A stretch of 41,302 nt of DNA. It comes from a virus (Duplodnaviria; Heunggongvirae; Uroviricota; Caudoviricetes). Shown piece after piece: positions 1 through 39,144 of this stretch. Numbering within the stretch: position 1 is the first letter of the stretch; each line of letters opens with the position of its first letter. Both the position numbers and the translations under genes were made by a program. The stretch lies in IMG/VR virus record IMGVR_UViG_2802429250_000004, one strand, 5' to 3'. Below the pieces are notes generated by a model that was not told where the DNA came from, did not search any database, and worked only from the letters and a program-made list of their open reading frames with translations.

Positions 1-1305
1 CTATGCTTGTTTAATTACATCCGATCCCACAGCGTGGGGCATGGATGGGGCAAACTCACTCAATTTCTGGTTTAAAATTGATACTTGATCCTGATTGTTT
101 TCTGCCATCCACGATCCGTAAACGCGATAAACCATCTGAGCATCAGAGTGTCCCATTTGCTTCGCGATGAAGTTAGGGTTAGCTCCAGCGGTCAAAGACC
201 AACATGCATAAGTGTGCCTGGACTGATATGCTTTGCGGTAGCGAATCCCGGCGCGTCGCATTGCAGTTTCCCATGACTGATTAATCGACCCAACTGCATA
301 ATGGTGCCCGGCAAGGCCATTACGCGTAACGATTTGCGGATTGAAGACAAAAGTGCACGGATGCATTTCAGTTCGACCATACTCACGAAGTTTCACTTCA
401 ACCTGATACTGCTTACCAAGCCGTGTCATTTCAGCCTGATTCTTAAGCACGTCTATTGCTGGTTGAATTAGGTTGATAACACGGTTTGTTCCCGCTTCGG
501 TTTTAGGAAGAGTGAACTCTTTCGTTAATGTGTGGTTTCTTCTGATCGTCATTGTCCCTGCCTTCAGGTCTATATCTTCCCATGCCAGAGAAACCAACTC
601 CCCGTGGCGAACTCCCGTATAAACAGCTAGTGACCACATATTTTTTAACTGCTGATGCTTAAATGCGTTAATCAACCTGACAAACTCATCACGGGTTAAC
701 GGATCAGGTTCCGTTCGTGATCTCTTCAGTTGCGAAATGGCTGCGAACGGATTTTCTTTGATGTATCCGCTGTCGGCTGCGAACTGAAACATCCCCGCCA
801 TGGTGTTCATGTAGTTATTAACTGTCGGCACGGAACGTCCCTTAATGGGTGTTTTTTGCCCTCGTTTCAGAACATGATATCCGGTCAGCAAATCCTTTCG
901 TATGAACAGCAGTTCTTCCTGAGTCACAGCAGATGCAAGTCTGTTGCCTCCGATTCGGGGAACCATATTTCTTACAATGGAGCTGTAACGCCCCATCGCA
1001 TTGGTACTGATTTCCAGCTTTTTCAGATCCAGCCATTTCTCAGCCAGGTCTGCGACGGTAATTTCCTTACTTTCCGCACCAAATTTTCTCAGGTTGGGAG
1101 AGTTCGGAAACTGAGCGGCATAGTCGAAATTACCCGTCTTAATGGAAAAACAAACAGACGCTCGTAGCTCGCCAGCTATTTTCCTGTTTTTTGGTGTATC
1201 CGGCACACCGAGACTTTCCCGTACTCGTGTGCCTTTATACATAAACCATATGCGGAGTGATCCGCCATGGTTCTCAACGCCTGTTGGGTATGCTGTCTTA
1301 GCCAT
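1..1305 (-). CDS. int: Tyrosine recombinase (phage integrase)
   Basis: 434-aa ORF with a C-terminal catalytic region typical of tyrosine integrases (…RHTYACWSLTAGANPNFIAKQMGHSDAQMVYRVYGSW…); ATG at 1303-1305 preceded by AGGAGGG; position at the genome end next to xis. Confidence 0.9.
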   Translation of the reverse strand: MAKTAYPTGVENHGGSLRIWFMYKGTRVRESLGVPDTPKNRKIAGELRASVCFSIKTGNFDYAAQFPNSPNLRKFGAESKEITVADLAEKWLDLKKLEISTNAMGRYSSIVRNMVPRIGGNRLASAVTQEELLFIRKDLLTGYHVLKRGQKTPIKGRSVPTVNNYMNTMAGMFQFAADSGYIKENPFAAISQLKRSRTEPDPLTRDEFVRLINAFKHQQLKNMWSLAVYTGVRHGELVSLAWEDIDLKAGTMTIRRNHTLTKEFTLPKTEAGTNRVINLIQPAIDVLKNQAEMTRLGKQYQVEVKLREYGRTEMHPCTFVFNPQIVTRNGLAGHHYAVGSINQSWETAMRRAGIRYRKAYQSRHTYACWSLTAGANPNFIAKQMGHSDAQMVYRVYGSWMAENNQDQVSILNQKLSEFAPSMPHAVGSDVIKQA

Positions 1306-6888: not shown

Positions 6889-7359
6889 CTAATAAAATAC
6901 CCAATTTTCTGTTTCTTGGTTGTGTCCAAAGTTATATTCAATATCTGGTGTTGATGTATCAATATTCTTCATCCCATCAACAAGAGTTGATACAACAGCT
7001 AAATCTTGTTTGATTCTCATTAAATGGTATTTCTTCCGGCGCAATAAACTCTCAATGGCAAGTTTCTTCGTTGGGAATGCAAAAGATCTTTCTGCATTTT
7101 TTGCTACTTTCTTAATTGCATATCTATTTCTCCTTTGTTTCCATTCCTGTAACCACTGATTTGGTGCTGGTTTAAAATTAACAATCCAATGCGCAGGAAC
7201 CAACCATGCATAATGCTCTGTCTGATGAAAAGCTATATATTGAAGTGCGAATATTTTTATCCCATCTTCTTCAACTGTCGCCTGGAATCTCCAGAAAACA
7301 GGCATTCCATCATGTTCAGTTTCTGATTCAGGAAAAGGTACGCTCCATGATTTTGTCAT
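6889..7359 (-). CDS. Hypothetical protein (AT-rich cargo)
   Basis: 156 aa; ATG at 7357-7359 with GAGGTG RBS; markedly AT-rich compared with neighbouring genes. Confidence 0.5.
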   Translation of the reverse strand: MTKSWSVPFPESETEHDGMPVFWRFQATVEEDGIKIFALQYIAFHQTEHYAWLVPAHWIVNFKPAPNQWLQEWKQRRNRYAIKKVAKNAERSFAFPTKKLAIESLLRRKKYHLMRIKQDLAVVSTLVDGMKNIDTSTPDIEYNFGHNQETENWVFY

Positions 7360-7437: not shown

Positions 7438-7887
7438 TTACTTAACCAATGATGCTGCATATTCGATAAGGTAAAGCTTTGGGGCTAGCCAAATTTTTAA
7501 CCAAGTCATATTGGTTACTACACCAATAATAAAAATCCCCCACAGAGTCAAAACTCCAACCAATGGCACGATAAGAAGATTAATATCACCTTTGCTATCC
7601 CAAACCATTGTCGGCCTGTATTTGTGATTTCCTTTCTCCCATGAATATCCTTCATCACCGATTTTACCTGTCTCAACTCTTTGGCACTGCTTCTTCATAA
7701 ACCAGAAAACTAGTGGGATTGTTAGAATGGCCATTAATGTTTTAATCAGACTGTCAACCATATTCCATAGCAGCAACTGATGAACAACATCAGGAATCTG
7801 TGCCTGGCTAAATGAAACAGCAGCATCTATTCCATTGCTGGCTTTTTGCAGTAGTTCTACGAGAATCTTGTTTGCTTGTTCTTCCAT
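7438..7887 (-). CDS. Membrane protein, possible superinfection-exclusion factor
   Basis: 149 aa with two hydrophobic segments (…LIKTLMAILTIPLVFWFM… and …INLLIVPLVGVLTLWGIFIIGVV…); ATG at 7885-7887 with AAGGTG RBS; AT-rich. Confidence 0.5.
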   Translation of the reverse strand: MEEQANKILVELLQKASNGIDAAVSFSQAQIPDVVHQLLLWNMVDSLIKTLMAILTIPLVFWFMKKQCQRVETGKIGDEGYSWEKGNHKYRPTMVWDSKGDINLLIVPLVGVLTLWGIFIIGVVTNMTWLKIWLAPKLYLIEYAASLVK

Positions 7888-8032: not shown

Positions 8033-8572
8033 ATGAGTAACTGGTGGCAGGAACTGTTACGCTTCTTCCTGCGTGGTCTTACGCTACAACAGTTAATTCA
8101 TATGCTTATTATTTTAATTGCCTTGATAATAATTACCCCAGCATCAATTAAAGAGTGGGTAGATATAAGGAACCCCGAAATACTTCCAGATCACTGGATG
8201 TATTACGCAATGCTTTTGTGTATCAGTTATGTTCTGAACAGGGTGATGGAGTTTATATTTCTGGCATCTTCAGACAGATATAAAAAATATCTCAGTAAGA
8301 GAGATGAGGCTAAAGTAATTGTGGAGACTGAGCGCCTGTTCAATTCTCTGAGTATTCAGGAAAAAGAGGTTTTAGCATTTGCTGTTATGGCAAATAACAA
8401 AATCGTACTTAAGCACGGCGATCCGGTCGCTTTATCTCTTATGAGAAAAGGCCTTCTCCATCGCTCAGGTGTGACTTACAGCGCGTCAGGTAAAGAGAAA
8501 TTTGTTATACCTGACGTCTGGTTCTATGAGTGTTATATGCGCTTTGCTGGTAAAGCTGATGAGCTAATTTAG
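8033..8572 (+). CDS. Membrane protein, SieB-like superinfection-exclusion candidate
   Basis: 179 aa on the opposite strand to the surrounding operon; two N-terminal transmembrane helices followed by a soluble domain, as described for the SieB family; GGAG RBS 8 nt upstream of ATG 8033; family assignment not verified. Confidence 0.45.
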   Translation: MSNWWQELLRFFLRGLTLQQLIHMLIILIALIIITPASIKEWVDIRNPEILPDHWMYYAMLLCISYVLNRVMEFIFLASSDRYKKYLSKRDEAKVIVETERLFNSLSIQEKEVLAFAVMANNKIVLKHGDPVALSLMRKGLLHRSGVTYSASGKEKFVIPDVWFYECYMRFAGKADELI

Positions 8573-8578
8573 TTCCTC

Positions 8579-8620
8579 GACGGCGGGGGATCGTCACCTC
8601 GCCGTCAGTTGTTTTGATTT
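8579..8620 (+). terminator. Possible intrinsic terminator after the SieB-like gene
   Basis: 7-bp stem GACGGCG/CGCCGTC with a 14-nt loop followed by a T-rich tract; overlaps the 3' end of N on the other strand. Confidence 0.3.
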
Positions 8621-8800
8621 CCGGTAGCCTGCCGCGTAAATGGCTACGTTTGGCAGGCAGCACGAACCACATTCAACCTTCTTCCTATTCGCTCCTGCTA
8701 GCGAAACCACCATTGAAACACGGTCAATATTTTTACGTTTTGCTGTCGCCTCTTTGTGCTTACGAGCGCGTTCGAGTTTGCGAATCTCTCTTGCTTTCAC
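8594..8800 (-). CDS. N: N-type transcription antiterminator (P22 gp24-like)
   Basis: 68 aa from a GTG start; N-terminal arginine-rich motif KAREIRKLERARKHKEATAKRK; C-terminus …VSLAGANRKKVECGSCCLPNVAIYAAGYRKSKQLTAR resembles the P22 gene 24 product as recalled; nutL lies just upstream. Confidence 0.7.
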   Translation of the reverse strand: MKAREIRKLERARKHKEATAKRKNIDRVSMVVSLAGANRKKVECGSCCLPNVAIYAAGYRKSKQLTAR

Positions 8801-8955
8801 TGGATACCTCCGATGATTGACTTTGGTGATTTGATGTCAGGTGTCGATCTCCTGATTGCGGCTACCCATCCTGCCCCAAAGGCAGGTGCTCACCGCTAAG
8901 CGTTAGTGCATCGACCTGCGCATTCATCAAATCCCAAAGCCAACCTCTCTTTGGT

Positions 8956-8994
8956 GGGGACGAATCATCCCCATTCCATCAATGTTAAAGAGCC
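8956..8994 (-). promoter_or_regulatory. nutL (boxA + boxB)
   Basis: Minus-strand boxA GGCTCTTTAACA (8983-8994) followed by boxB hairpin GGGGATGATTCGTCCCC (8956-8972); the boxB is identical to the one at nutR. Confidence 0.65.
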
Positions 8995-9039
8995 TGCCAA
9001 TCTGTTCCGTTTGGCTTCCTGCGTCCTGCTGATGGCTTA

Positions 9040-9120
9040 AAGATAACTTAGGTTATAGGCGTGGTCAATAACTTAGTTTATATTTTGTGGTAAATAAGTT
9101 ATAAGTAATGGATAACAAAG
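9040..9120 (-). promoter_or_regulatory. PL promoter / OL operators
   Basis: Minus-strand -35 TTGACC (9063-9068), 17-bp spacer, -10 TATCTT (9040-9045); overlapping palindromes ATAACTTAGGTTAT and ATAACTTAGTTTAT share the ATAAC-N4-GTTAT motif with the OR region. Confidence 0.45.
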
Positions 9121-9254
9121 GTATTTTATTTTTGTAAATGTTGAGGATGAAGGTGATGGGCAGGGATCAGAATTGCACTGTTTAGCAAGTTGTATCTATT
9201 AGTTTTCCAATAAATACAAATGGTTATGTGTTGTTGGGAAGGGGGATCGAGAGG

Positions 9255-9290
9255 CAAAGAAAACCCGACGCTAAGGCCGGGGTGTGAGGG
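9255..9290 (-). terminator. Possible terminator ending the cI operon
   Basis: Minus-strand hairpin (CCCGGC…GUCGGG with one G-U pair) followed by UUUUCUUUG, just downstream of the 9312 stop and before PL. Confidence 0.35.
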
Positions 9291-9311
9291 ATTAATTACA
9301 GAGCAAAGAGA

Positions 9312-10316
9312 TCACGCATTAGGTTGCTGTTCATCTGGTTGTTGAATTGATACGGCTCCAGTTCTTTTTTGATCTCGTTCAGGTGCTGTTCCGCTTTTCT
9401 TGCCAGATTGCGACTTTCTTGGATCTGGCTTTCCAACATTTTGTTGAGAATTTCCATCTCCGGTTGCAGATTCTTCGGCATTAGTATTGTCCTCTTTATC
9501 TTGTGTAGTAAGAGGGAAATCCATCACCCTTGGTTTTCCAAACGTTGGGATTTCACCACTATGAATCTTATCACAGAAAAAATTATCGAGTATTTCTGTT
9601 ATACCTTTAGGACATTCAACACACTTGAAAAGTTCCTTGGCTTCTTTTCTGTCGATAACAAATCCATGTGAAGGATACGAAGCGATGAGTTTGCTTAACG
9701 CCCCTTCTTTTAGACTACTTGGCTTGTCTGCTAACCGTTGACCATAAGTGATAGCAATGCTCATCGCACGCTGATGCTCACCAAGTTTTATTGGATCTAT
9801 CTGAGCAGCCATGGGGGCTATCAATGCCTCTGTAAGTCTGGTTGCGATGTCAGCAGATATTTTAGTGCTTATCTGGTTTTCGTATTTTATCTGAACAAGG
9901 TATGAGTTAAACGCTGAAATAGAGCGCTCCTTCAGTGCATCGAGAGCTGTCATAATGGCTAAACCAGAGCTCATCTCACCTATTTCATCGTTTTTTTTCA
10001 GTTGGATATCTAATGGCCCGAGCTCACCCATGTCACCAATAACAAGTTTATTCGCAGCTATGGCTATTAGTGTACCAGCACTTTTGCACGGCCCAACAAC
10101 TAAAAGTGTTACCGTTTCATAATAGTGCTGGAGAGCCCTACCTATACGATAACCAGCATTAGGATCACCGCCATAAGTAGCAACACAGAAGATAACATTC
10201 TCTTTTAATCCATGTTGTGACTTACGCTTCTTGATTTTATTGGTTAGATCAAGATAACCATCACGATGAATATCGCCTATATACACATAAACATCATTAT
10301 TTTCAATAGTATTCAT
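9312..10316 (-). CDS. ClpP/S49-fold serine peptidase-like protein (SDH/SppA-like) in the rexAB-equivalent slot
   Basis: 334 aa; core …VIFCVATYGGDPNAGYRIGRALQHYYETVTLLVVGPCKSAGTLIAIAANKLVIGDMGELGPLD… aligns by eye to the ClpP motif block (…INSPGG…AG…GQAASMGA…) with a Ser in the nucleophile position; low-complexity charged C-terminal tail; AGGGAG RBS; co-directional and immediately downstream of cI; AT-rich. Confidence 0.6.
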   Translation of the reverse strand: MNTIENNDVYVYIGDIHRDGYLDLTNKIKKRKSQHGLKENVIFCVATYGGDPNAGYRIGRALQHYYETVTLLVVGPCKSAGTLIAIAANKLVIGDMGELGPLDIQLKKNDEIGEMSSGLAIMTALDALKERSISAFNSYLVQIKYENQISTKISADIATRLTEALIAPMAAQIDPIKLGEHQRAMSIAITYGQRLADKPSSLKEGALSKLIASYPSHGFVIDRKEAKELFKCVECPKGITEILDNFFCDKIHSGEIPTFGKPRVMDFPLTTQDKEDNTNAEESATGDGNSQQNVGKPDPRKSQSGKKSGTAPERDQKRTGAVSIQQPDEQQPNA

Positions 10317-10459
10317 TCGTTAAACTCCCTGTTGTGGTTACGATGAATGTATTCATGTTGAGGATAAGACATAGTGGTTTGTCATCATCGCTAATCTGGC
10401 GCAATTGACTTTTCATAAATCACAATTGGAATCACCCAAACGTCTCTTCAGGCCACTGG

Positions 10460-11167
10460 CTACCAGCTATGTGATGACCAGAATACTCTGCCAATAATCC
10501 TTACTGTTTCATGAAACTCATCTCTATCCATTACTTCATCAGGGTACTCTTCGCGATTTATTGATCTGATTATCACGGATGTAGGTGTGGCTATTAATGT
10601 CTTTACTCTTAGTAAATCAGATTGACAAATAGCGTAGGTTTTACCATCTCTGATGGTGGTGTCTTGCGTGTTGACTCCAACAACATCACCATCGTGAAGG
10701 GTTGGCTCCATGCTTTGGCCTATCACCCTAACCAGCTTGGCAGAGCTTTCAGATACCCCCATCTTTTTCAGATAGTACTTTCTGAAAACCAAAGAGAACT
10801 CAGATGATTCCTCTAACTCACAGCTACCACTCCCGGCGGAAAGAGAAACATTAAGAAGAGGCAATGCGACAAACTCGTCATCGTTTCTTTTTATGTCTTC
10901 CCATACCACCGCTTTTAACGATGACTCACGCACATTCGATGGCTCTTCATGTGCACCATCCCTCATTTCACCAATACCTGAGCTAAGCCATTCAGGGCGT
11001 ACTTTTAAAGCATTGGCTAATTCAACCATCTTGCGAGATCCGTTTGTTTTACCGGATGACATCTTCTGTATGGCTGGCTGAGATATTCCAACCATGTCAG
11101 CAAGCTGTGATTGCGACACACCTGCTGAGCTCATGGCTGCATTTAGTCTTTCTGCGAATGTTTTCAT
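10460..11167 (-). CDS. cI: CI-type prophage repressor (HTH-XRE plus S24 LexA-like peptidase domain)
   Basis: N-terminal HTH (…QSQLADMVGISQPAIQKM…), Ala-Gly cleavage site (LSAGSGS) and C-terminal S24 motif GQSMEPTLHDGDVV; ATG at 11165-11167 has no RBS, consistent with a leaderless PRM transcript as in lambda. Confidence 0.85.
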   Translation of the reverse strand: MKTFAERLNAAMSSAGVSQSQLADMVGISQPAIQKMSSGKTNGSRKMVELANALKVRPEWLSSGIGEMRDGAHEEPSNVRESSLKAVVWEDIKRNDDEFVALPLLNVSLSAGSGSCELEESSEFSLVFRKYYLKKMGVSESSAKLVRVIGQSMEPTLHDGDVVGVNTQDTTIRDGKTYAICQSDLLRVKTLIATPTSVIIRSINREEYPDEVMDRDEFHETVRIIGRVFWSSHSW

Positions 11168-11278
11168 ACCCACAAATCTATAACTACGGTTATCCAAAGT
11201 AAAATAATAAAGGTTATTGCTATTTTTTATAACTTGAGTTATCTTTGGTTATAAGTAATGACCACAAGAGGTATGCTC
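11168..11278. promoter_or_regulatory. OR operators with divergent PRM/PR
   Basis: Intergenic region between divergent cI and cro containing palindromes ATAACTACGGTTAT and ATAACTTGAGTTAT (same ATAAC-N4-GTTAT motif as OL); exact promoter hexamers not resolved. Confidence 0.5.
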
Positions 11279-11503
11279 ATGAATTTAGTAATTCAACGAG
11301 CCTTGAAAATTGTCGGTAGCCAAAAGCGCCTTGCCGACAAGTGTGGTGTAACGCAGCCAGCAGTACACAAATGGCTGAAAGGCGGGTTGGTCTCTCCAGA
11401 GAAAGTTACCGCCATCGTTAACGCCACTGGAGGGCAGATCAAGGCTTACGAAATTCGCCCCGATTTGCCACACCTGTTTCCAAAACCGAATCAGGCAGCA
11501 TAA
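11279..11503 (+). CDS. cro: Cro-like repressor
   Basis: 74 aa starting MNLVIQRAL… with AGAGGT RBS; HTH-like …QKRLADKCGVTQPAVHKWL…; divergent from cI. Confidence 0.65.
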   Translation: MNLVIQRALKIVGSQKRLADKCGVTQPAVHKWLKGGLVSPEKVTAIVNATGGQIKAYEIRPDLPHLFPKPNQAA

Positions 11504-11510
11504 GTAACAC

Positions 11511-11548
11511 CGCTCTTTAAACAATCAGGTCGGGGATGATTCGTCCCC
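11511..11548 (+). promoter_or_regulatory. nutR (boxA + boxB)
   Basis: boxA CGCTCTTTAAACA (11511-11523) and boxB hairpin GGGGATGATTCGTCCCC (11532-11548) between cro and cII. Confidence 0.7.
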
Positions 11549-11600
11549 ACAAAAAACGCATCAACAGATGCGTAATATTCACTATTGGAAATCATAAGAA

Positions 11601-11897
11601 ATGGAACAAACAAGTTACAGCAAACTATCACAGCGTGACGTTGATCGCGCAGAAACAGATTTACTCATCAACCTGTCAACGCTTACACAGCGCGGTCTGG
11701 CAAAGATGATTGGCTGTCATGAATCAAAGATAAGCAGAACGGACTGGAGATTTATTGCTTCGGTCTTGTGTGCTTTCGGAATGGCATCAGACATCAGTCC
11801 GATTAGTAGGGCTTTTAAGTATGCGCTTGATGGAATCACCAATAAAAAACGCCCGGCGGCAACCGAGCGTTCTGATCAAATACAAATGGAATTTTAA
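11601..11897 (+). CDS. cII: CII transcriptional activator
   Basis: 98 aa; C-terminus …TNKKRPAATERSDQIQMEF closely matches lambda CII (…TNKKRPAATERSEQIQMEF) as recalled; position after cro/nutR. Confidence 0.85.
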   Translation: MEQTSYSKLSQRDVDRAETDLLINLSTLTQRGLAKMIGCHESKISRTDWRFIASVLCAFGMASDISPISRAFKYALDGITNKKRPAATERSDQIQMEF

Positions 11898-35836: not shown

Positions 35837-36226
35837 CTAACATTTTCTTTTTACTTTTCCAACAAAAGCTTTGGTTGAATCCATATTTCCATAACCGGAA
35901 ATGGTTTTTGACATTAAAACTGTTCCAGTAGGATGTATTACCCATGAGTCGATAACGCGTTGAGTTTCGCCATTCGCGCCGATTCCTATGATGGAGTTTT
36001 TAGACAATACTTTGTAAGCCATGCCGCCCGCATCTGTCCCAGAATATGTGATGCTAGCATCTTCACCGCTTGTCTTAATGATGAATGTTCCACTAAAACC
36101 ATCTTCTTCCGGATGGAAATTATTTCGTTCTGAATAGCTTATTCCGCGCATATCTCCAACGACCCAGCACTCTGCTGTAGCCCCAAAAGATATGAATAAG
36201 AACATAGCAGCAAGAAATTGCTTCAC
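35837..36226 (-). CDS. Secreted (periplasmic) protein of unknown function, at the P22 sieA position
   Basis: GTG start at 36224-36226 with AAGGAGG 5 nt upstream; N-terminal signal peptide MKQFLAAMFLFISFGATA followed by about 110 mature residues; convergent with gp16. Confidence 0.5.
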   Translation of the reverse strand: MKQFLAAMFLFISFGATAECWVVGDMRGISYSERNNFHPEEDGFSGTFIIKTSGEDASITYSGTDAGGMAYKVLSKNSIIGIGANGETQRVIDSWVIHPTGTVLMSKTISGYGNMDSTKAFVGKVKRKC

Positions 36227-36256
36227 ACCAACCTCCTTAGTTTTGCGCAGGATACC

Positions 36257-36622
36257 ATGAAAAAAGTTAACATTGGAAACGTACCAAAGATGCTCGTACC
36301 GCTCTTTGAGAGCGGTACGATTGTATTTTGCAGAGACTTTCCAGAATGGCAACGCCTGCATCAAAAACTTGGCGTGGACGTGCGGGACTCGGATGCCAAC
36401 GGAGCGTCTCATACAATGAGCAGCGAGAATGGTGTTTTGCATGTGATAGGTGTGTTCAATGGCAAACTATCTACTATTGCCCATGAGTGCGCTCACATGG
36501 CATTCGATATCTGCTCGAGGGTCGGTGTTGATGTTGAACCAGGAAGAGCCAACGAGACTTACTGCTACTTAATGAGCAGGCTTGTTGAGTTCTGCGAGCG
36601 ACATATCAAAAAGCCGGAGTGA
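36257..36622 (+). CDS. Small HExxH-motif protein (putative zinc metallopeptidase-like)
   Basis: 121 aa from ATG 36257; contains IAHECAHMAFD (HExxH) with a downstream Glu; divergent from the secreted protein gene with about a 30-bp gap. Confidence 0.5.
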   Translation: MKKVNIGNVPKMLVPLFESGTIVFCRDFPEWQRLHQKLGVDVRDSDANGASHTMSSENGVLHVIGVFNGKLSTIAHECAHMAFDICSRVGVDVEPGRANETYCYLMSRLVEFCERHIKKPE

Positions 36623-36953: not shown

Positions 36954-37490
36954 TCAAACAACCCACCAGTTTGCCTGATTGGATACCAGCCTTGCAGTTT
37001 TTATGGAATTAATTATGCCATGCTCAAGAGCCTTGTTAGCATCCAAAATGGTCGAGTCTGCTATCAGGGATGCCCACCTAATATGGGTTCCGATGTCGAT
37101 ATTGAACGTCTCAACGAAGCGATCAAGATCGTTATCGAGGCATTTCCCGTACTCTCTCAATCTGGCATGGTCGGCGGCTGGGGTGGCAAAGCCCCATAAT
37201 AGAGGATGTAACAGGAATCTTGATAATGGGTTTGCGAAACGTTCTGAGCCAGCGAGGAAAACGATATTAGCTATGGATTCAATATTGCTTATGTTGTGAG
37301 TTCTAACGGTAACAGGGAGTGACTTAAGAAAGTTATACGCAGTAAAGCCAGCGGCAGTTTCCCCTCCCTGACTTGATATATGGATATTTAATTCAGTTGC
37401 GCCTTGAGATAATGCGGTGAGACAGTGGTTCTGAAGTTGCCCAACAGTGGCAGTATTAACGGGGCATAAGAAATGAATTGTGTGCAGCAT
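36954..37490 (-). CDS. ClpP-family serine peptidase-like protein, translationally coupled to mnt
   Basis: 178 aa; aligns by eye along most of ClpP: …ISSQGGETAAGFTAYNFL… (ClpP INSPGGVITAGMSIYDTM), …ESIANIVFLAGSERFANPLSRFLLHP… (ClpP …[30 protein letters not shown]) and …ADSTILDANKALEHGIINSI (ClpP …DRFLSAPEAVEYGLVDSI); Ser/His/Asp candidates present; its ATG overlaps the mnt stop (TAATG). Confidence 0.65.
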   Translation of the reverse strand: MLHTIHFLCPVNTATVGQLQNHCLTALSQGATELNIHISSQGGETAAGFTAYNFLKSLPVTVRTHNISNIESIANIVFLAGSERFANPLSRFLLHPLLWGFATPAADHARLREYGKCLDNDLDRFVETFNIDIGTHIRWASLIADSTILDANKALEHGIINSIKTARLVSNQANWWVV

Positions 37491-37741
37491 TATTTTTCAT
37501 CCTTACCATACATGGTCTTTAGCGTCTCAACATCATGTTCAAGATCTATCAATCGTGATGCTATAGTTGCAAGGTCTAGTGCTTGAATGTGTTTATTTTT
37601 TTCGGTCCATGCTTCAAGTGCCGCGACCATCTCAGCATTTAATGAACGAGAATTAGCCTCAGCCAGTTCAATAAGACGTTCCTTTATCTCTACAGGAAGC
37701 CTCAGATTCACTTGAGGGTTTTTGTACTTACGATCAGACAT
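37490..37741 (-). CDS. mnt: Mnt-like ribbon-helix-helix repressor
   Basis: 83 aa from ATG 37739-37741 (same length as P22 Mnt); N-terminal RHH …VNLRLPVEIKERLIELAEANSRSLNAEMVAAL… parallels P22 Mnt (…FNFRMPMEVREKLKFRAEANGRSMNSELLQIV…); divergent from arc. Confidence 0.7.
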   Translation of the reverse strand: MSDRKYKNPQVNLRLPVEIKERLIELAEANSRSLNAEMVAALEAWTEKNKHIQALDLATIASRLIDLEHDVETLKTMYGKDEK

Positions 37742-37846
37742 CGGCACATCCTGAATAATTTTTTACCACAGGATATGTAGGTATCTATTGACTATCAATG
37801 CGTACCTAAATACTATGTATGCGTACCACATACAACGGAGGATGCA
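37742..37846. promoter_or_regulatory. immI control region (divergent Pmnt/Pant with operator candidates)
   Basis: Intergenic region between divergent mnt and arc containing the palindrome ATTGACTATCAAT and a duplicated ATGCGTACC element. Confidence 0.4.
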
Positions 37847-37987
37847 ATGAAGGTAAAAACACTGCGTATGCCAGAGAAGTTAGAAAAAATCCTTGAAGAG
37901 AAAGCAAAGGAAGAGTGTCGCTCATTTAGCGCAGAAGTAATTAAACGAGTGTTGGACAGTCTGAAGAGGGAGGGGATAACGGTGTGA
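37847..37987 (+). CDS. arc: Arc-like ribbon-helix-helix repressor
   Basis: 46 aa MKVKTLRMPEKLEKILEEKAKEECRSFSAEVIKRVLDSLKREGITV, paralleling P22 Arc (…FNLRWPREVLDLVRKVAEENGRSVNSEIYQRVMESFKKEGRI…); GGAGG RBS. Confidence 0.7.
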   Translation: MKVKTLRMPEKLEKILEEKAKEECRSFSAEVIKRVLDSLKREGITV

Positions 37988-38220: not shown

Positions 38221-39144
38221 ATGAAAAGTATAGCAACAGCAGTATCTACTATCAATGTACCATTCCACGGCGCAGAGCTTTATGTTGTCAATCACAACGG
38301 CGAACCGTATACCCCAATGAAACCTATCGTTGAGGGAATGGGTATGGATTGGGCTTCACAGTTTACAAAGTTAAAACAAAGATTTGCTAAAGGTATTGTG
38401 GAAATCGCAATACCTTCAGTTGGCGGTGTGCAGACCATGATTTGCCTTGCTTTACGTAAACTGAATGGCTGGCTGCAAACCATCAGTCCAAACAAAGTAC
38501 GCCCTGAAATCCGCGACAAGGTAATCCAGTATCAGGAAGAGTGTGACGATGTGCTATACGAGTACTGGACTAAAGGTCATGTAGTTAACCCACGCAAAGC
38601 TAAAAAGGCGTTGCCGGGTAAAATCACCACTGAACAGCAGGAAGCCATTAAACAACTCGTCATGAGTCGCGGTCAGTCTCTGCCAAAAGAAAAACAGGCG
38701 AAGGCGATGATCACCATGTGGTCGTCACTGAAATCCCATTTTGGATGTTCGTACAAAGAAATCAGTGAGGAGCAGTTTACCGAAGCACTGTCACTTGCTG
38801 CTCGCGTTCCGCTTGAAGGAGAGTTCATCGGCAAACAAGATAAGAAAACCAACGAGCTTTCTGCAAAAGAAGCAAACAGTCTTGTATGGTTATGGGATTA
38901 TGCCAACCGCTCACAGGCATTATTCCGCGAATTGTATCCGGCGCTAAAACAAATTCAATCGAACTATTCCGGCAGATGCTACGACTATGGTCATGAGTTC
39001 TCGTATGTTATCGGAATGGCGAGAGACGTTTTAATCAATCACACACGAGATGTTGATATCAATGAGCCAGACGGACCAACGAATCTTTCCGCATGGATGA
39101 GACTTAAGAATAAAGAATTACCTCCTTCAATACATAACTACTGA
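38221..39144 (+). CDS. ant: Antirepressor (AntA-domain)
   Basis: 307 aa; N-terminal …[39 protein letters not shown]… typical of the AntA/AntB antirepressor N-terminal domain; downstream of arc as in P22 immI. Confidence 0.7.

What the first reader, a model, noticed from the sequence alone, without database searches (positions are those of the whole stretch)
9250..10460. ClpP/S49-fold peptidase-like gene in the rexAB-equivalent slot next to cI
A single 334-aa gene sits immediately downstream of and co-directional with cI, ahead of a terminator and PL. This is the position lambda uses for rexAB and other lambdoid phages use for lysogen-expressed exclusion genes. The protein has a ClpP-fold core with a Ser at the nucleophile position (…GPCKSAGTLIAIAANKLVIGDMGELGPLD…) and a long charged, low-complexity C-terminal tail. 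The gene is AT-rich relative to the phage backbone. A protease of this fold is not a recognised lambdoid exclusion gene to my knowledge, so this is a candidate single-gene defence or abortive-infection factor.
Basis: partly seen in the sequence, partly recalled or inferred. Interest (0 to 1): 0.8.

Follow-up and report, generated by a model that had tools for sequence, protein, structure and literature searches.

The report
Prophage protease gene behind the repressor
A P22-like E. coli prophage carries, directly behind its cI repressor in the slot where lambda keeps rexAB, a mobile single-gene cassette for a ClpP-fold serine protease with an intact catalytic triad; it belongs to a large, uncharacterised family that usually sits in this position and is a plausible but untested anti-phage factor.

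Summary
Window 9312..10316 (minus strand) encodes a real 334-aa protein. It lies 143 bp downstream of, and co-directional with, cI, and is followed by a terminator-like hairpin, then OL/PL, a boxA-like element and an N-like gene.

The protein is an SDH-type (PF01972-like) ClpP-fold serine protease, not an S49 peptidase. Ser79, Asp103 and His217 are invariant across relatives only 30-51% identical. The last ~65 residues are disordered and not conserved.

The family is large (1,388 clusters at 50% identity with E<=1e-30) but rare in E. coli (28 of 5,426 complete genomes). In 42 of 80 viral loci the upstream neighbour is a co-directional repressor. No other partner gene is conserved.

The cassette moves between unrelated repressor alleles: 99% identical proteases sit beside repressors about 13% identical. 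It also occupies other prophage cargo slots. This argues against a repressor-specific role and for lysogen-expressed cargo.

A defence or exclusion role is the best inference, but nothing here tests it. There is no PADLOC model and no accessible literature on the family. From memory only, a two-gene PICI defence system ("FS_HP_SDH_sah") contains a domain of this family.

In passing: the same prophage carries a second, unrelated ClpP-fold gene directly behind its Mnt-like repressor.

The parts
9312..10316 (-). Gene for a 334-aa SDH-type ClpP-fold serine protease. Folded part is about residues 1-270 (catalytic candidates Ser79, Asp103, His217); disordered variable tail is about 271-334.
10317..10459 (-). 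143-bp cI-protease spacer. No terminator; AGGGAG ribosome-binding site before the ATG. Its first 27 nt (10433-10459) are an in-frame relic of a lambda-type cI 3' end (QWPEETFG*).
   Evidence: Sequence read; no terminator-like site; RNA fold z=+0.59. The spacer travels with the gene between prophages (one search matches span window ~9163-10477).
9254..9281 (-). tIMM-like intrinsic terminator: CCCGGC-loop-GUCGGG hairpin followed by UUUUCUUU, 31 nt after the stop codon.
   Evidence: Corresponds in position to the annotated tIMM of HK620.
10460..11197 (-). cI-type repressor (HTH_3 + Peptidase_S24). The true start is probably the ATG at 11167.
   Evidence: Pfam S24 E=3e-17 and HTH_3; phrog_4.
9040..9081 (-). 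OL operators (ATAAC-N4-GTTAT at 9043-9056 and 9068-9081) overlapping a PL-like promoter (TTGACC-17-TATCTT).
   Evidence: 17 motif matches against 4.7 expected; homology to the HK620 pL/OL region.
11180..11242 (+). OR operators carrying the same ATAAC-N4-GTTAT motif, between cI and the cro-like gene.
8985..8994 (-). boxA-like element of nutL (GGCTCTTTAA).
   Evidence: Sequence; aligns with the annotated boxA of mEpX2 and nutL of HK620.
8594..8800 (-). N-like antiterminator, first gene of the PL operon. It marks the end of the immunity-region slot.
   Evidence: phrog_271, E=1.8e-13.

Best explanation
The gene is a mobile, single-gene cargo cassette (about window 9163-10477: spacer, gene, terminator) inserted in the immunity region of a P22-like prophage.

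It has no terminator or convincing promoter of its own between it and cI. It is therefore most likely transcribed with cI from the maintenance and establishment promoters, and so made in the lysogen, as lambda rexAB is.

Its product is a cytoplasmic, ATP-independent ClpP-fold serine protease of the SDH type, with a Ser79-Asp103-His217 triad and a disordered acidic-then-basic C-terminal tail.

The most likely biological role is to protect the lysogen against other phages. It would do this by cleaving either a protein of the incoming phage (exclusion) or a host target once infection is sensed (abortive infection). The tail may act as a regulatory or self-inhibitory element, by analogy with the SppA C-terminus that occupies its own active sites.

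Shown: gene, fold, conserved triad, position, cassette mobility, independence from repressor allele.
Inferred: co-transcription with cI, protease activity, anti-phage role, role of the tail.
For: Fold and family:
- Pfam, NCBIfam and PHROG matches.
- Best viral structural matches are 'Serine dehydrogenase proteinase'.

Active site:
- Ser79 aligns with the ClpP/NfeD nucleophile.
- S79 and D103 are 148/148 and H217 is 147/148 in relatives 30-51% identical.

Lysogen-expression logic:
- The gene lies between cI and a terminator, upstream of OL/PL.
- The same slot holds unrelated genes in HK620/mEpX2 and SH2026Stx1, and rexAB in lambda (established knowledge).

Cargo behaviour:
- Low GC and GC3.
- Present in 28 of 5,426 E. 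coli genomes and 2 of 50,697 phage records.
- Relic of a lambda-type cI end at the joint.
- 99% identical proteases sit next to repressors about 13% identical; 40% of protease pairs >=85% identical have repressors <30% identical.
- It sits next to HTH-only repressors in Klebsiella, at int-dinI in a Mu/P2-like prophage, at a prophage edge in Malonomonas and stand-alone in Neisseria.
- It is retained with a repressor in what looks like a prophage remnant in Bartonella.

Family-wide synteny:
- 42 loci have a co-directional upstream repressor, and 28 of 47 distinct upstream neighbours carry Peptidase_S24.
- No other conserved partner.
Against: - No experiment or defence-model hit supports an anti-phage role: PADLOC gives nothing for the protein.
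- Only sporadic candidate-defence hits occur among 150 neighbour clusters.
- No literature was found.
- Co-transcription with cI is inferred only from the lack of a terminator or promoter in a simple scan.
- The sequence matches to PF01972 and NF047768 are below the curated cut-offs for this protein (26.1 against 31.3 bits; 33.4 against 250 bits).
- Catalytic geometry could not be measured because model coordinates are not exposed.
- The very frequent pairing with S24 repressors could also reflect a functional link to the lysogeny switch.
Confidence: 0.5

Rival explanations
1. Lysogeny-switch accessory protease. It acts on phage regulators (repressor fragments after self-cleavage, CII, Cro or an antirepressor) to tune maintenance or induction, in the way ImmA acts on ImmR in ICEBs1-type elements.
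For: - A co-directional repressor lies immediately upstream in 42 loci, and 28 of 47 distinct neighbours carry S24.
- This holds across relatives only 40-50% identical and across several proteobacterial classes.
- One Klebsiella phage places it beside an XRE + ImmA/IrrE pair.
Against: - Protease identity is decoupled from repressor identity (99% against 13%).
- It occurs next to repressors that lack S24 and in slots with no repressor at all.
- It is rare among otherwise similar lambdoid prophages (28 of 5,426 genomes), and the slot holds unrelated genes elsewhere. That is not expected of a core switch component.
Confidence: 0.18
2. Lysogenic-conversion or host-fitness protease unrelated to phage defence, for example stress proteolysis, processing of a host or competitor protein, or a virulence-related function.
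For: - Cargo behaviour and lysogen-expression position fit any moron.
- A stand-alone chromosomal copy lies between fimbrial and catabolic genes in Neisseria.
- There is no defence-island association.
Against: - The overwhelming prophage association.
- The specific use of the slot that lambda uses for exclusion genes.
- There is no signal peptide or membrane segment that would suggest an extracytoplasmic target (sequence read).
Confidence: 0.15
3. Counter-defence or establishment factor. Made from the establishment promoter early after infection, it would degrade a host defence or restriction component to help the phage settle.
For: - Transcripts from PRE-type promoters would also read through cI into this gene (by analogy with lambda; a cII homologue is present).
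- Proteases are plausible anti-defence effectors.
Against: - Anti-defence genes are normally in early lytic operons, not inside the immunity region behind the repressor.
- Retention with a repressor in an apparently decayed element (Bartonella) and stand-alone in Neisseria fits host benefit better.
Confidence: 0.07
4. Virion (head) maturation protease or scaffold-processing enzyme.
For: Weak N-terminal matches to head-maturation protease families (phrog_1684 E=8e-7; NF045542 31.7 bits against a cut-off of 120).
Against: - These matches cover only the generic ClpP-fold N-terminus and are far below the cut-offs.
- The gene is in the immunity region, on the strand opposite to the late genes, and is bounded by a terminator.
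- The head module is terminase-portal-scaffold-coat with no protease, as in P22.
- The gene is absent from nearly all related phages.
Confidence: 0.02
5. Catalytically dead or decaying relic with no current function.
For: It scores below the curated family thresholds and has a long non-conserved tail.
Against: - The ORF is intact.
- The candidate triad and about 40 other positions are invariant across 30-51% identical relatives.
- A 99% identical copy exists in an independent contig and in 8 genomes.
- The model is confident.
Confidence: 0.03

Closest known systems
SDH-type ClpP-fold serine proteinases (Pfam PF01972 SDH_protease; NCBIfam NF047768 Clp_like_SDH)
   Same: - Best sequence family for this protein and for all 77 aligned relatives.
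- ClpP/crotonase fold.
- Ser-Asp-His order of invariant residues.
- Best viral structural matches carry this name.
- PGAP already uses this name for the E. coli copies.
   Different: - Scores below both curated cut-offs; only profile positions about 97-161 of 286 align significantly.
- This branch has a near-invariant Cys77-Lys78 just before the Ser, a long helical insertion (about residues 118-197) and a ~65-residue disordered tail.
- No biological role is assigned to the family in the libraries used.
Lambda RexAB and other lysogen-expressed exclusion genes in the cI-tIMM slot (functional and positional analogue)
   Same: Same position and orientation: downstream of cI, a spacer of about 130-145 bp, ended by a terminator before OL/PL (lambda layout from established knowledge). 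Cargo-like and variable between related phages.
   Different: No sequence or fold relationship; one gene instead of two; a soluble protease, not a sensor plus a membrane protein; no PADLOC hit. Function untested.
FS_HP_SDH_sah, a two-gene PICI-borne anti-phage system (Fillol-Salom et al., Cell 2022; DefenseFinder). Recalled from memory, not verified here.
   Same: As I recall, one component is a PF01972 ('SDH_sah') domain protein carried by a mobile element and shown to protect against phages. If so, a protease of this family already has a defence precedent.
   Different: - That system has a second 'HP' gene and sits in phage satellites.
- Here there is no conserved partner and the carrier is a prophage immunity region.
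- Sequence relationship could not be tested: the paper and the models are not available.
SppA (S49) and 1510-N/NfeD membrane proteases
   Same: Among the best solved-structure matches (3rst/4kwb, 2deo). The SAGT motif around the Ser is shared with NfeD. The SppA C-terminus occupying its own active sites (4kwb title) is a possible analogy for the tail.
   Different: - Those use a Ser/Lys dyad; here the candidate Lys108 varies (130 of 148) while Asp103 and His217 are invariant.
- No Peptidase_S49 Pfam hit.
- No membrane anchor.
Lit protease of prophage e14 (functional analogue, established knowledge)
   Same: A prophage-encoded protease expressed in the lysogen that aborts infection by cleaving a host protein once a phage peptide is sensed. 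This is the type of mechanism proposed here.
   Different: Lit is a zinc metalloprotease of unrelated fold, and its trigger and target are known; here neither is known.

Membership tests
SDH-type ClpP-fold serine proteinase (PF01972 / NF047768) | Sequence score at or above the curated family cut-off | tested here: not met
   PF01972: 26.1 bits against gathering 31.3. NF047768: 33.4 bits against 250.
SDH-type ClpP-fold serine proteinase (PF01972 / NF047768) | PF01972 is consistently the best-matching family across relatives | tested here: met
   77 of 77 aligned relatives hit PF01972, best E=3.7e-10; NfeD1b_N 19 and CLP_protease 6.
SDH-type ClpP-fold serine proteinase (PF01972 / NF047768) | ClpP/crotonase alpha/beta fold | tested here: met
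SDH-type ClpP-fold serine proteinase (PF01972 / NF047768) | Catalytic residues in the order Ser, Asp, His, all conserved | tested here: met
   S79 148/148, D103 148/148, H217 147/148 (one gap) in representatives 30-51% identical. S79 aligns to the ClpP/NfeD nucleophile.
SDH-type ClpP-fold serine proteinase (PF01972 / NF047768) | The three residues form a triad in space; peptidase activity | not testable with these tools
   Model coordinates are not exposed; no biochemistry.
Peptidase S49 (SppA) | Ser/Lys catalytic dyad with an invariant Lys, and a Peptidase_S49 sequence match | tested here: not met
   No PF01343 hit. Candidate K108 is only 130 of 148 (R10, N6).
ClpP (S14) | Ser-His-Asp order, with His about 25 residues after the Ser; CLP_protease above cut-off | tested here: not met
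   CLP_protease 18.4 bits against 20.2. By my own reading of the motifs, the position corresponding to the ClpP His motif is occupied by the invariant GPLD(103)IQ motif.
Known anti-phage defence systems (PADLOC-DB v2.0.0) | Match to any defence protein model | tested here: not met
   0 families at E<=0.1.
FS_HP_SDH_sah (PICI defence system; from memory) | Adjacent conserved 'HP' partner gene | tested here: not met
   The only widely conserved neighbour is the upstream repressor. The small ORF before the Klebsiella copy has no domain and is not conserved.
FS_HP_SDH_sah (PICI defence system; from memory) | Homology of the protease to the system's SDH_sah component | not testable with these tools
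   DefenseFinder models and the paper are not available.
Lysogen-expressed cargo in the cI-tIMM slot (rexAB-like position) | Co-directional with cI, no intervening terminator, terminator before OL/PL, slot variable among relatives | tested here: met
Lysogen-expressed cargo in the cI-tIMM slot (rexAB-like position) | Transcript present in the lysogen | not testable with these tools
   Needs RNA-seq or 5' RACE of a lysogen.
Phage head-maturation protease | Located in the head module; score above family cut-off | tested here: not met
   NF045542 31.7 bits against 120. The head module has terminase-portal-scaffold-coat with no protease, and the gene is in the immunity region.
ImmA-like repressor-specific protease (functional class) | Co-variation with, or strict dependence on, the cognate repressor | tested here: not met
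   99% identical protease beside a repressor about 13% identical. Occurs without any repressor.

The most novel reading that the evidence does not exclude
This is the founding example of a widespread class of single-gene, repressor-coupled protease immunity modules. Each would be an ATP-independent SDH-type ClpP-fold protease made in the lysogen. It would be held inactive by, or would sense through, its variable disordered tail, and would abort or exclude superinfecting phages by targeted proteolysis. The second, unrelated ClpP-fold gene behind the Mnt-like repressor of the same prophage would then show that coupling a ClpP-fold protease to a lysogeny repressor is a recurrent design.
Probability: 0.3. 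Interest if true: 0.75.

Novelty: new variant of a known kind. Interest (0 to 1): 0.55.

Why it matters
Prophage genes expressed from the repressor transcript are a proven source of anti-phage systems, yet what fills the rexAB slot in most lambdoid and P22-like prophages is unknown.

This analysis shows that one occupant belongs to a very large family: at least 1,388 clusters at 50% identity. The family has an intact protease triad and sits behind a prophage repressor in about two thirds of the informative loci, across several proteobacterial classes. Yet it has no assigned role and is missing from a major defence-model library.

If it is a defence protease, it would add an ATP-independent ClpP-fold enzyme to the short list of protease-based bacterial immunity. 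It would also give a one-gene system that is easy to dissect for trigger, substrate and tail function. If instead it tunes the lysogeny switch, it would be a new type of accessory regulator. Either outcome can be tested directly with a small cassette and three point mutants.

Tried and rejected
- Zn-finger-like hits of residues 226-258 to C2H2 fingers. Rejected: the Cys/His positions are not conserved in the family.
- PADLOC on the protein and on 150 neighbour-cluster representatives. No systematic defence association, so uninformative.
- Search for a conserved partner gene by clustering 1,675 neighbour ORFs. None apart from the repressor and the lambdoid backbone genes.
- Small ORF preceding the Klebsiella phage copy. 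No domain and not conserved.
- Literature searches: 'SDH family Clp fold', 'serine dehydrogenase proteinase' with defense or phage, PF01972, ClpP-like with prophage, SppA with prophage, SDH_sah. Nothing relevant. One apparent SppA hit was a text artefact.
- Brenes & Laub 2025 and Fillol-Salom 2022 are not held.
- Own promoter for the gene. Only a 9/12 match that overlaps the start codon and another inside cI; total promoter-like sites are below the shuffled expectation. No evidence.
- Rfam scan of 8500-11700: nothing.
- Co-travel of the two ClpP-fold genes. The second is in 261 genomes and the first in 28, with no overlap among the 60 listed records, so they look like independent cargo. Only 60 of the 261 were listed.
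- afdb50 fold library was unavailable.
- I did not run the costly genome contigs or metagenome scans. Five look-ups plus 80 viral loci already gave the context pattern.
Full report
**1. The observation**

The window is a nearly complete P22-like prophage. Its layout is:
- integrase at 1..1305 (minus strand);
- Sak4 and SSB recombination genes;
- SieB;
- the immunity region;
- replication genes and a Q-like antiterminator;
- terminase, portal, scaffold and coat;
- ejection proteins;
- an immI-like region;
- tailspike.

Within the immunity region:
- The ORF 9312..10316 (minus strand) encodes 334 aa containing the quoted motif.
- Upstream, on the same strand, 10460..11197 encodes an HTH_3 + Peptidase_S24 repressor. 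Its probable true start is the ATG at 11167.
- A cro-like gene (11258..11503) and a cII gene (11601..11897) diverge from it.
- The 143-bp spacer between cI and the ORF has a good ribosome-binding site (AGGGAG) and no terminator-like structure.
- Thirty-one bases after the stop codon there is a GC hairpin followed by UUUUCUUU (9281..9254).
- Next come two ATAAC-N4-GTTAT operators overlapping a TTGACC-17-TATCTT promoter-like site (9040..9081), a boxA-like GGCTCTTTAA (8985..8994) and an N-like gene (8594..8800).
- The same operator motif occurs three times between cI and cro. The motif gave 17 matches against 4.7 expected by chance.
- The PL/nutL segment is homologous to the annotated pL, OL1-3, tIMM and nutL of HK620 and mEpX2.

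It has 40.5% GC (GC3 29.9%), against 47.0% for the window.

**2. What the protein is**

Sequence family:
- It matches phrog_21683 (function unknown) end to end (E=1.7e-174).
- Its best Pfam and NCBIfam matches are the SDH-type ClpP-fold serine proteinases: PF01972, 26.1 bits against a cut-off of 31.3; NF047768, 33.4 bits against 250.
- All 77 aligned relatives hit PF01972 as their best family, with best E=3.7e-10.
- PGAP already names the E. coli copies 'SDH family Clp fold serine proteinase'.

Structure:
- An AlphaFold2 model built on 77 sequences is confident for about residues 5-105 and 190-270. It is intermediate in a helical insertion (118-197) and disordered after about 270.
- Foldseek against PDB puts SppA, ClpP and 1510-N on top, with modest TM-scores.
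- In the viral structure library the best and longest matches are giant-virus proteins named 'Serine dehydrogenase proteinase'.

Catalytic residues:
- A profile search of solved structures aligns Ser79 with the nucleophile Ser of ClpP (AASMGT) and of 1510-N (AASAGT).
- In 148 cluster representatives only 30-51% identical to the query, Ser79 and Asp103 are invariant and His217 is present in 147, the exception being a gap.
- His181 is not conserved, and Lys108 is only 130 of 148.
- This is the Ser-Asp-His order that defines the SDH type. It is not the Ser/Lys dyad of S49, nor the Ser-His-Asp order of ClpP.
- Cys77 and Lys78, just before the Ser, are nearly invariant and are particular to this branch.

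The tail:
- Its length is similar across relatives (median 94 residues after position 236).
- Its composition is also similar: an acidic/polar stretch, then a short Lys/Arg patch.
- Its sequence is not conserved.
- The weak Zn-finger-like hits fall on non-conserved residues and are chance.

**3. How the gene behaves across genomes**

Family size and frequency:
- The exhaustive search finds 1,388 representatives (50% clusters) at E<=1e-30 and 5,758 at E<=1e-3.
- Named members come from many Enterobacterales and from Bartonella, Neisseria, Gilliamella, Alishewanella and Malonomonas.
- In E. coli it is rare: 28 of 5,426 complete genomes, always single-copy and chromosomal. There are two alleles, at >=99% (8 genomes) and about 90.5% (20 genomes).
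- Only 2 of 50,697 phage records carry it.

Neighbours in 80 viral contigs carrying a relative:
- The only widely conserved neighbour is a co-directional gene ending just upstream, found in 42 loci.
- 28 of 47 distinct upstream neighbours carry Peptidase_S24, and others are HTH-only regulators.
- CII-like, N-like and replication genes follow at lower counts, as expected of lambdoid backbones.
- No partner gene is conserved.

Independence from the repressor:
- The protease is not tied to a particular repressor. The copy in L013 is 99% identical, yet its repressor is about 13% identical to the one here.
- Among protease pairs at least 85% identical, 40% have repressors below 30%.
- E. coli genome matches run from about 9163 to about 10477. 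So spacer, gene and terminator move together.
- Directly after the resident cI stop lies an in-frame relic, CAG TGG CCT GAA GAG ACG TTT GGG TGA (QWPEETFG*). This is the C-terminus of lambda-type cI, and it marks a recombination joint.

Other contexts for relatives:
- behind a short HTH-only repressor in Klebsiella Rac-like prophages;
- behind an HTH-S24 gene in what looks like a prophage remnant in Bartonella;
- between int-dinI and the invertase/tail-fibre genes of a Mu/P2-like prophage in E. coli;
- at a prophage edge in Malonomonas;
- beside an XRE + ImmA/IrrE pair in a Klebsiella phage;
- alone between fimbrial and catabolic genes in Neisseria.

The cI-PL slot itself is variable. It holds an unrelated 122-aa gene in HK620 and mEpX2, three unrelated genes in SH2026Stx1, and rexAB in lambda (established knowledge).

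**4. Most likely function and mechanism**

Shown:
- a real, conserved, probably active SDH-type serine protease gene;
- packaged as a one-gene cassette;
- placed where it should be read through from the cI transcript and stopped before PL;
- with the composition and patchy distribution of cargo.

Inferred:
- It is made in the lysogen.
- It benefits the lysogen by interfering with other phages, either by cleaving an incoming phage protein or by cleaving a host target after sensing infection. The Lit protease of e14 is the established precedent for the second mode.
- The variable disordered tail could be a self-inhibitory or sensing element. The analogy is the SppA structure in which the protein's own C-termini occupy the active sites (4kwb). 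This is speculation.

I put this overall reading at about 0.5.

The main rival (0.18) is a role in the lysogeny switch itself, suggested by the very frequent pairing with repressors. Against it:
- the protease is decoupled from the repressor allele;
- it occurs with repressors lacking S24 or with none;
- it is rare among otherwise similar prophages.

The other rivals:
- A phage-unrelated fitness role: 0.15.
- A counter-defence role during establishment: 0.07.
- A virion-maturation role is effectively excluded. The head module is P22-type without a protease, and the matches to head-protease families are generic and far below the cut-offs.
- A dead relic is unlikely, given the invariant triad.

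The guilt-by-association test was uninformative. Among 150 neighbour-cluster representatives, only sporadic PADLOC hits appeared: one each of PDC-S22, PDC-M41B, PDC-M30B and DpdH, plus methyltransferases and HTH regulators.

**5. Comparison with what is known**

As a protein, it is a divergent branch of a named family (SDH-type, PF01972). It meets the fold and catalytic-residue criteria but scores below the curated cut-offs.

As a genetic element, it works like lambda rexAB in position and in its presumed expression, without any homology.

It is not in PADLOC-DB v2.0.0. I found no paper on it in the held library.

From memory only: DefenseFinder lists 'FS_HP_SDH_sah', a two-gene system from E. 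coli phage-inducible chromosomal islands (Fillol-Salom et al., Cell 2022). I recall its name as referring to the former Pfam short name of PF01972. If that is right, a protease of this family already has a defence precedent. The present cassette would then be a single-gene, prophage-immunity-region variant. It lacks the partner gene. I could not retrieve the paper or the models, so this remains a lead and not a test.

**6. Novelty and verdict**

The fold assignment is already known. The position-specific, family-wide coupling to prophage repressors, the intact triad across the family and the cassette mobility are, as far as I could find, undescribed. The function is open.

I classify it as a new variant of a known kind: lysogen-expressed prophage cargo in the rex slot, possibly related to a known SDH-containing defence system. 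Interest is 0.55. A specialist would expect a defence gene in this slot, so the surprise is moderate. But the family is large, single-gene and immediately testable.

**7. Seen in passing**

The same prophage has a second, unrelated ClpP-fold gene (36954..37490, minus strand):
- It scores 44.9 bits against Pfam CLP_protease, above the cut-off.
- By eye, it has ClpP-type Ser, His and Asp motifs.
- It starts at the stop codon of an Arc-domain, Mnt-like repressor (37490..37747, minus strand). That repressor diverges from an Arc-like gene and Ant. This is the slot where P22 carries sieA (established knowledge).
- The pair occurs in 261 of 5,426 E. coli genomes.

So both lysogeny repressors of this prophage are followed by a ClpP-fold protease gene. 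This may be coincidence or a recurrent design, and it deserves the same experiments.

Noticed in passing
window 36954..37490 (-), with 37490..37747 (-), 37847..37987 (+), 38221..39144 (+): A second, unrelated ClpP-fold gene: 178 aa, Pfam CLP_protease 44.9 bits (above cut-off), with ClpP-type Ser/His/Asp motifs by eye. It starts at the stop codon of an Arc-domain Mnt-like repressor, which diverges from an Arc-like gene and Ant; this is the P22 sieA slot. It has no PADLOC hit. PGAP annotates it as 'ATP-dependent Clp protease proteolytic subunit' next to an 'Arc family DNA-binding protein' in 261 of 5,426 E. coli genomes, and six phage records carry a near-identical copy. So both lysogen-expressed repressors of this prophage are followed by a ClpP-fold protease gene.
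   Followed up: partly
window 10433..10459 (-): Directly after the resident cI stop codon lies an in-frame relic encoding QWPEETFG*, the C-terminus of lambda-type cI. The same ending is seen on the repressor upstream of the protease in L030. It marks the recombination joint by which the cassette moved between immunity regions.
   Followed up: partly
window 36218..36622 (+); L060 4030..4401 (+): A small HExxH-motif ORF (134 aa; phrog_1365, function unknown; no Pfam hit) lies near the second protease. It is 64% identical (E=1e-52) to an ORF about 600 bp upstream of the SDH-type protease in loci L060/L061. The two cargo families therefore recur near each other in unrelated phages.
   Followed up: partly
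window 8033..8572 (+) and 7438..7887 (-), 6889..7359 (-): A SieB superinfection-exclusion homologue (Pfam SieB E=3e-20) sits just beyond N. Next to it are a 149-aa ORF with hydrophobic stretches (by eye; phrog_3054, unknown) and a 156-aa ORF (phrog_1636, unknown). The left arm therefore carries further exclusion-type cargo.
   Followed up: no
L094 5483..5731 (dinI) and L099 979..1212 (DinI): In two unrelated contexts where the protease is not behind a cI-type repressor, a DinI gene lies close by: int-dinI-protease in an E. coli Mu/P2-like prophage, and about 1.8 kb away in Klebsiella phage ST13-OXA48phi12.4. The latter also has an XRE + ImmA/IrrE pair divergent from the protease. This may hint at an SOS-related theme or may simply reflect shared cargo hotspots.
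   Followed up: no
window 10460..11197 (-): The mechanical cI ORF starts at a TTG (11197) that overlaps the third OR operator (11180..11193). The more likely start is the ATG at 11167 (MKTFAERL...), giving 235 aa and a very short or absent leader, as for lambda cI transcribed from PRM.
   Followed up: no
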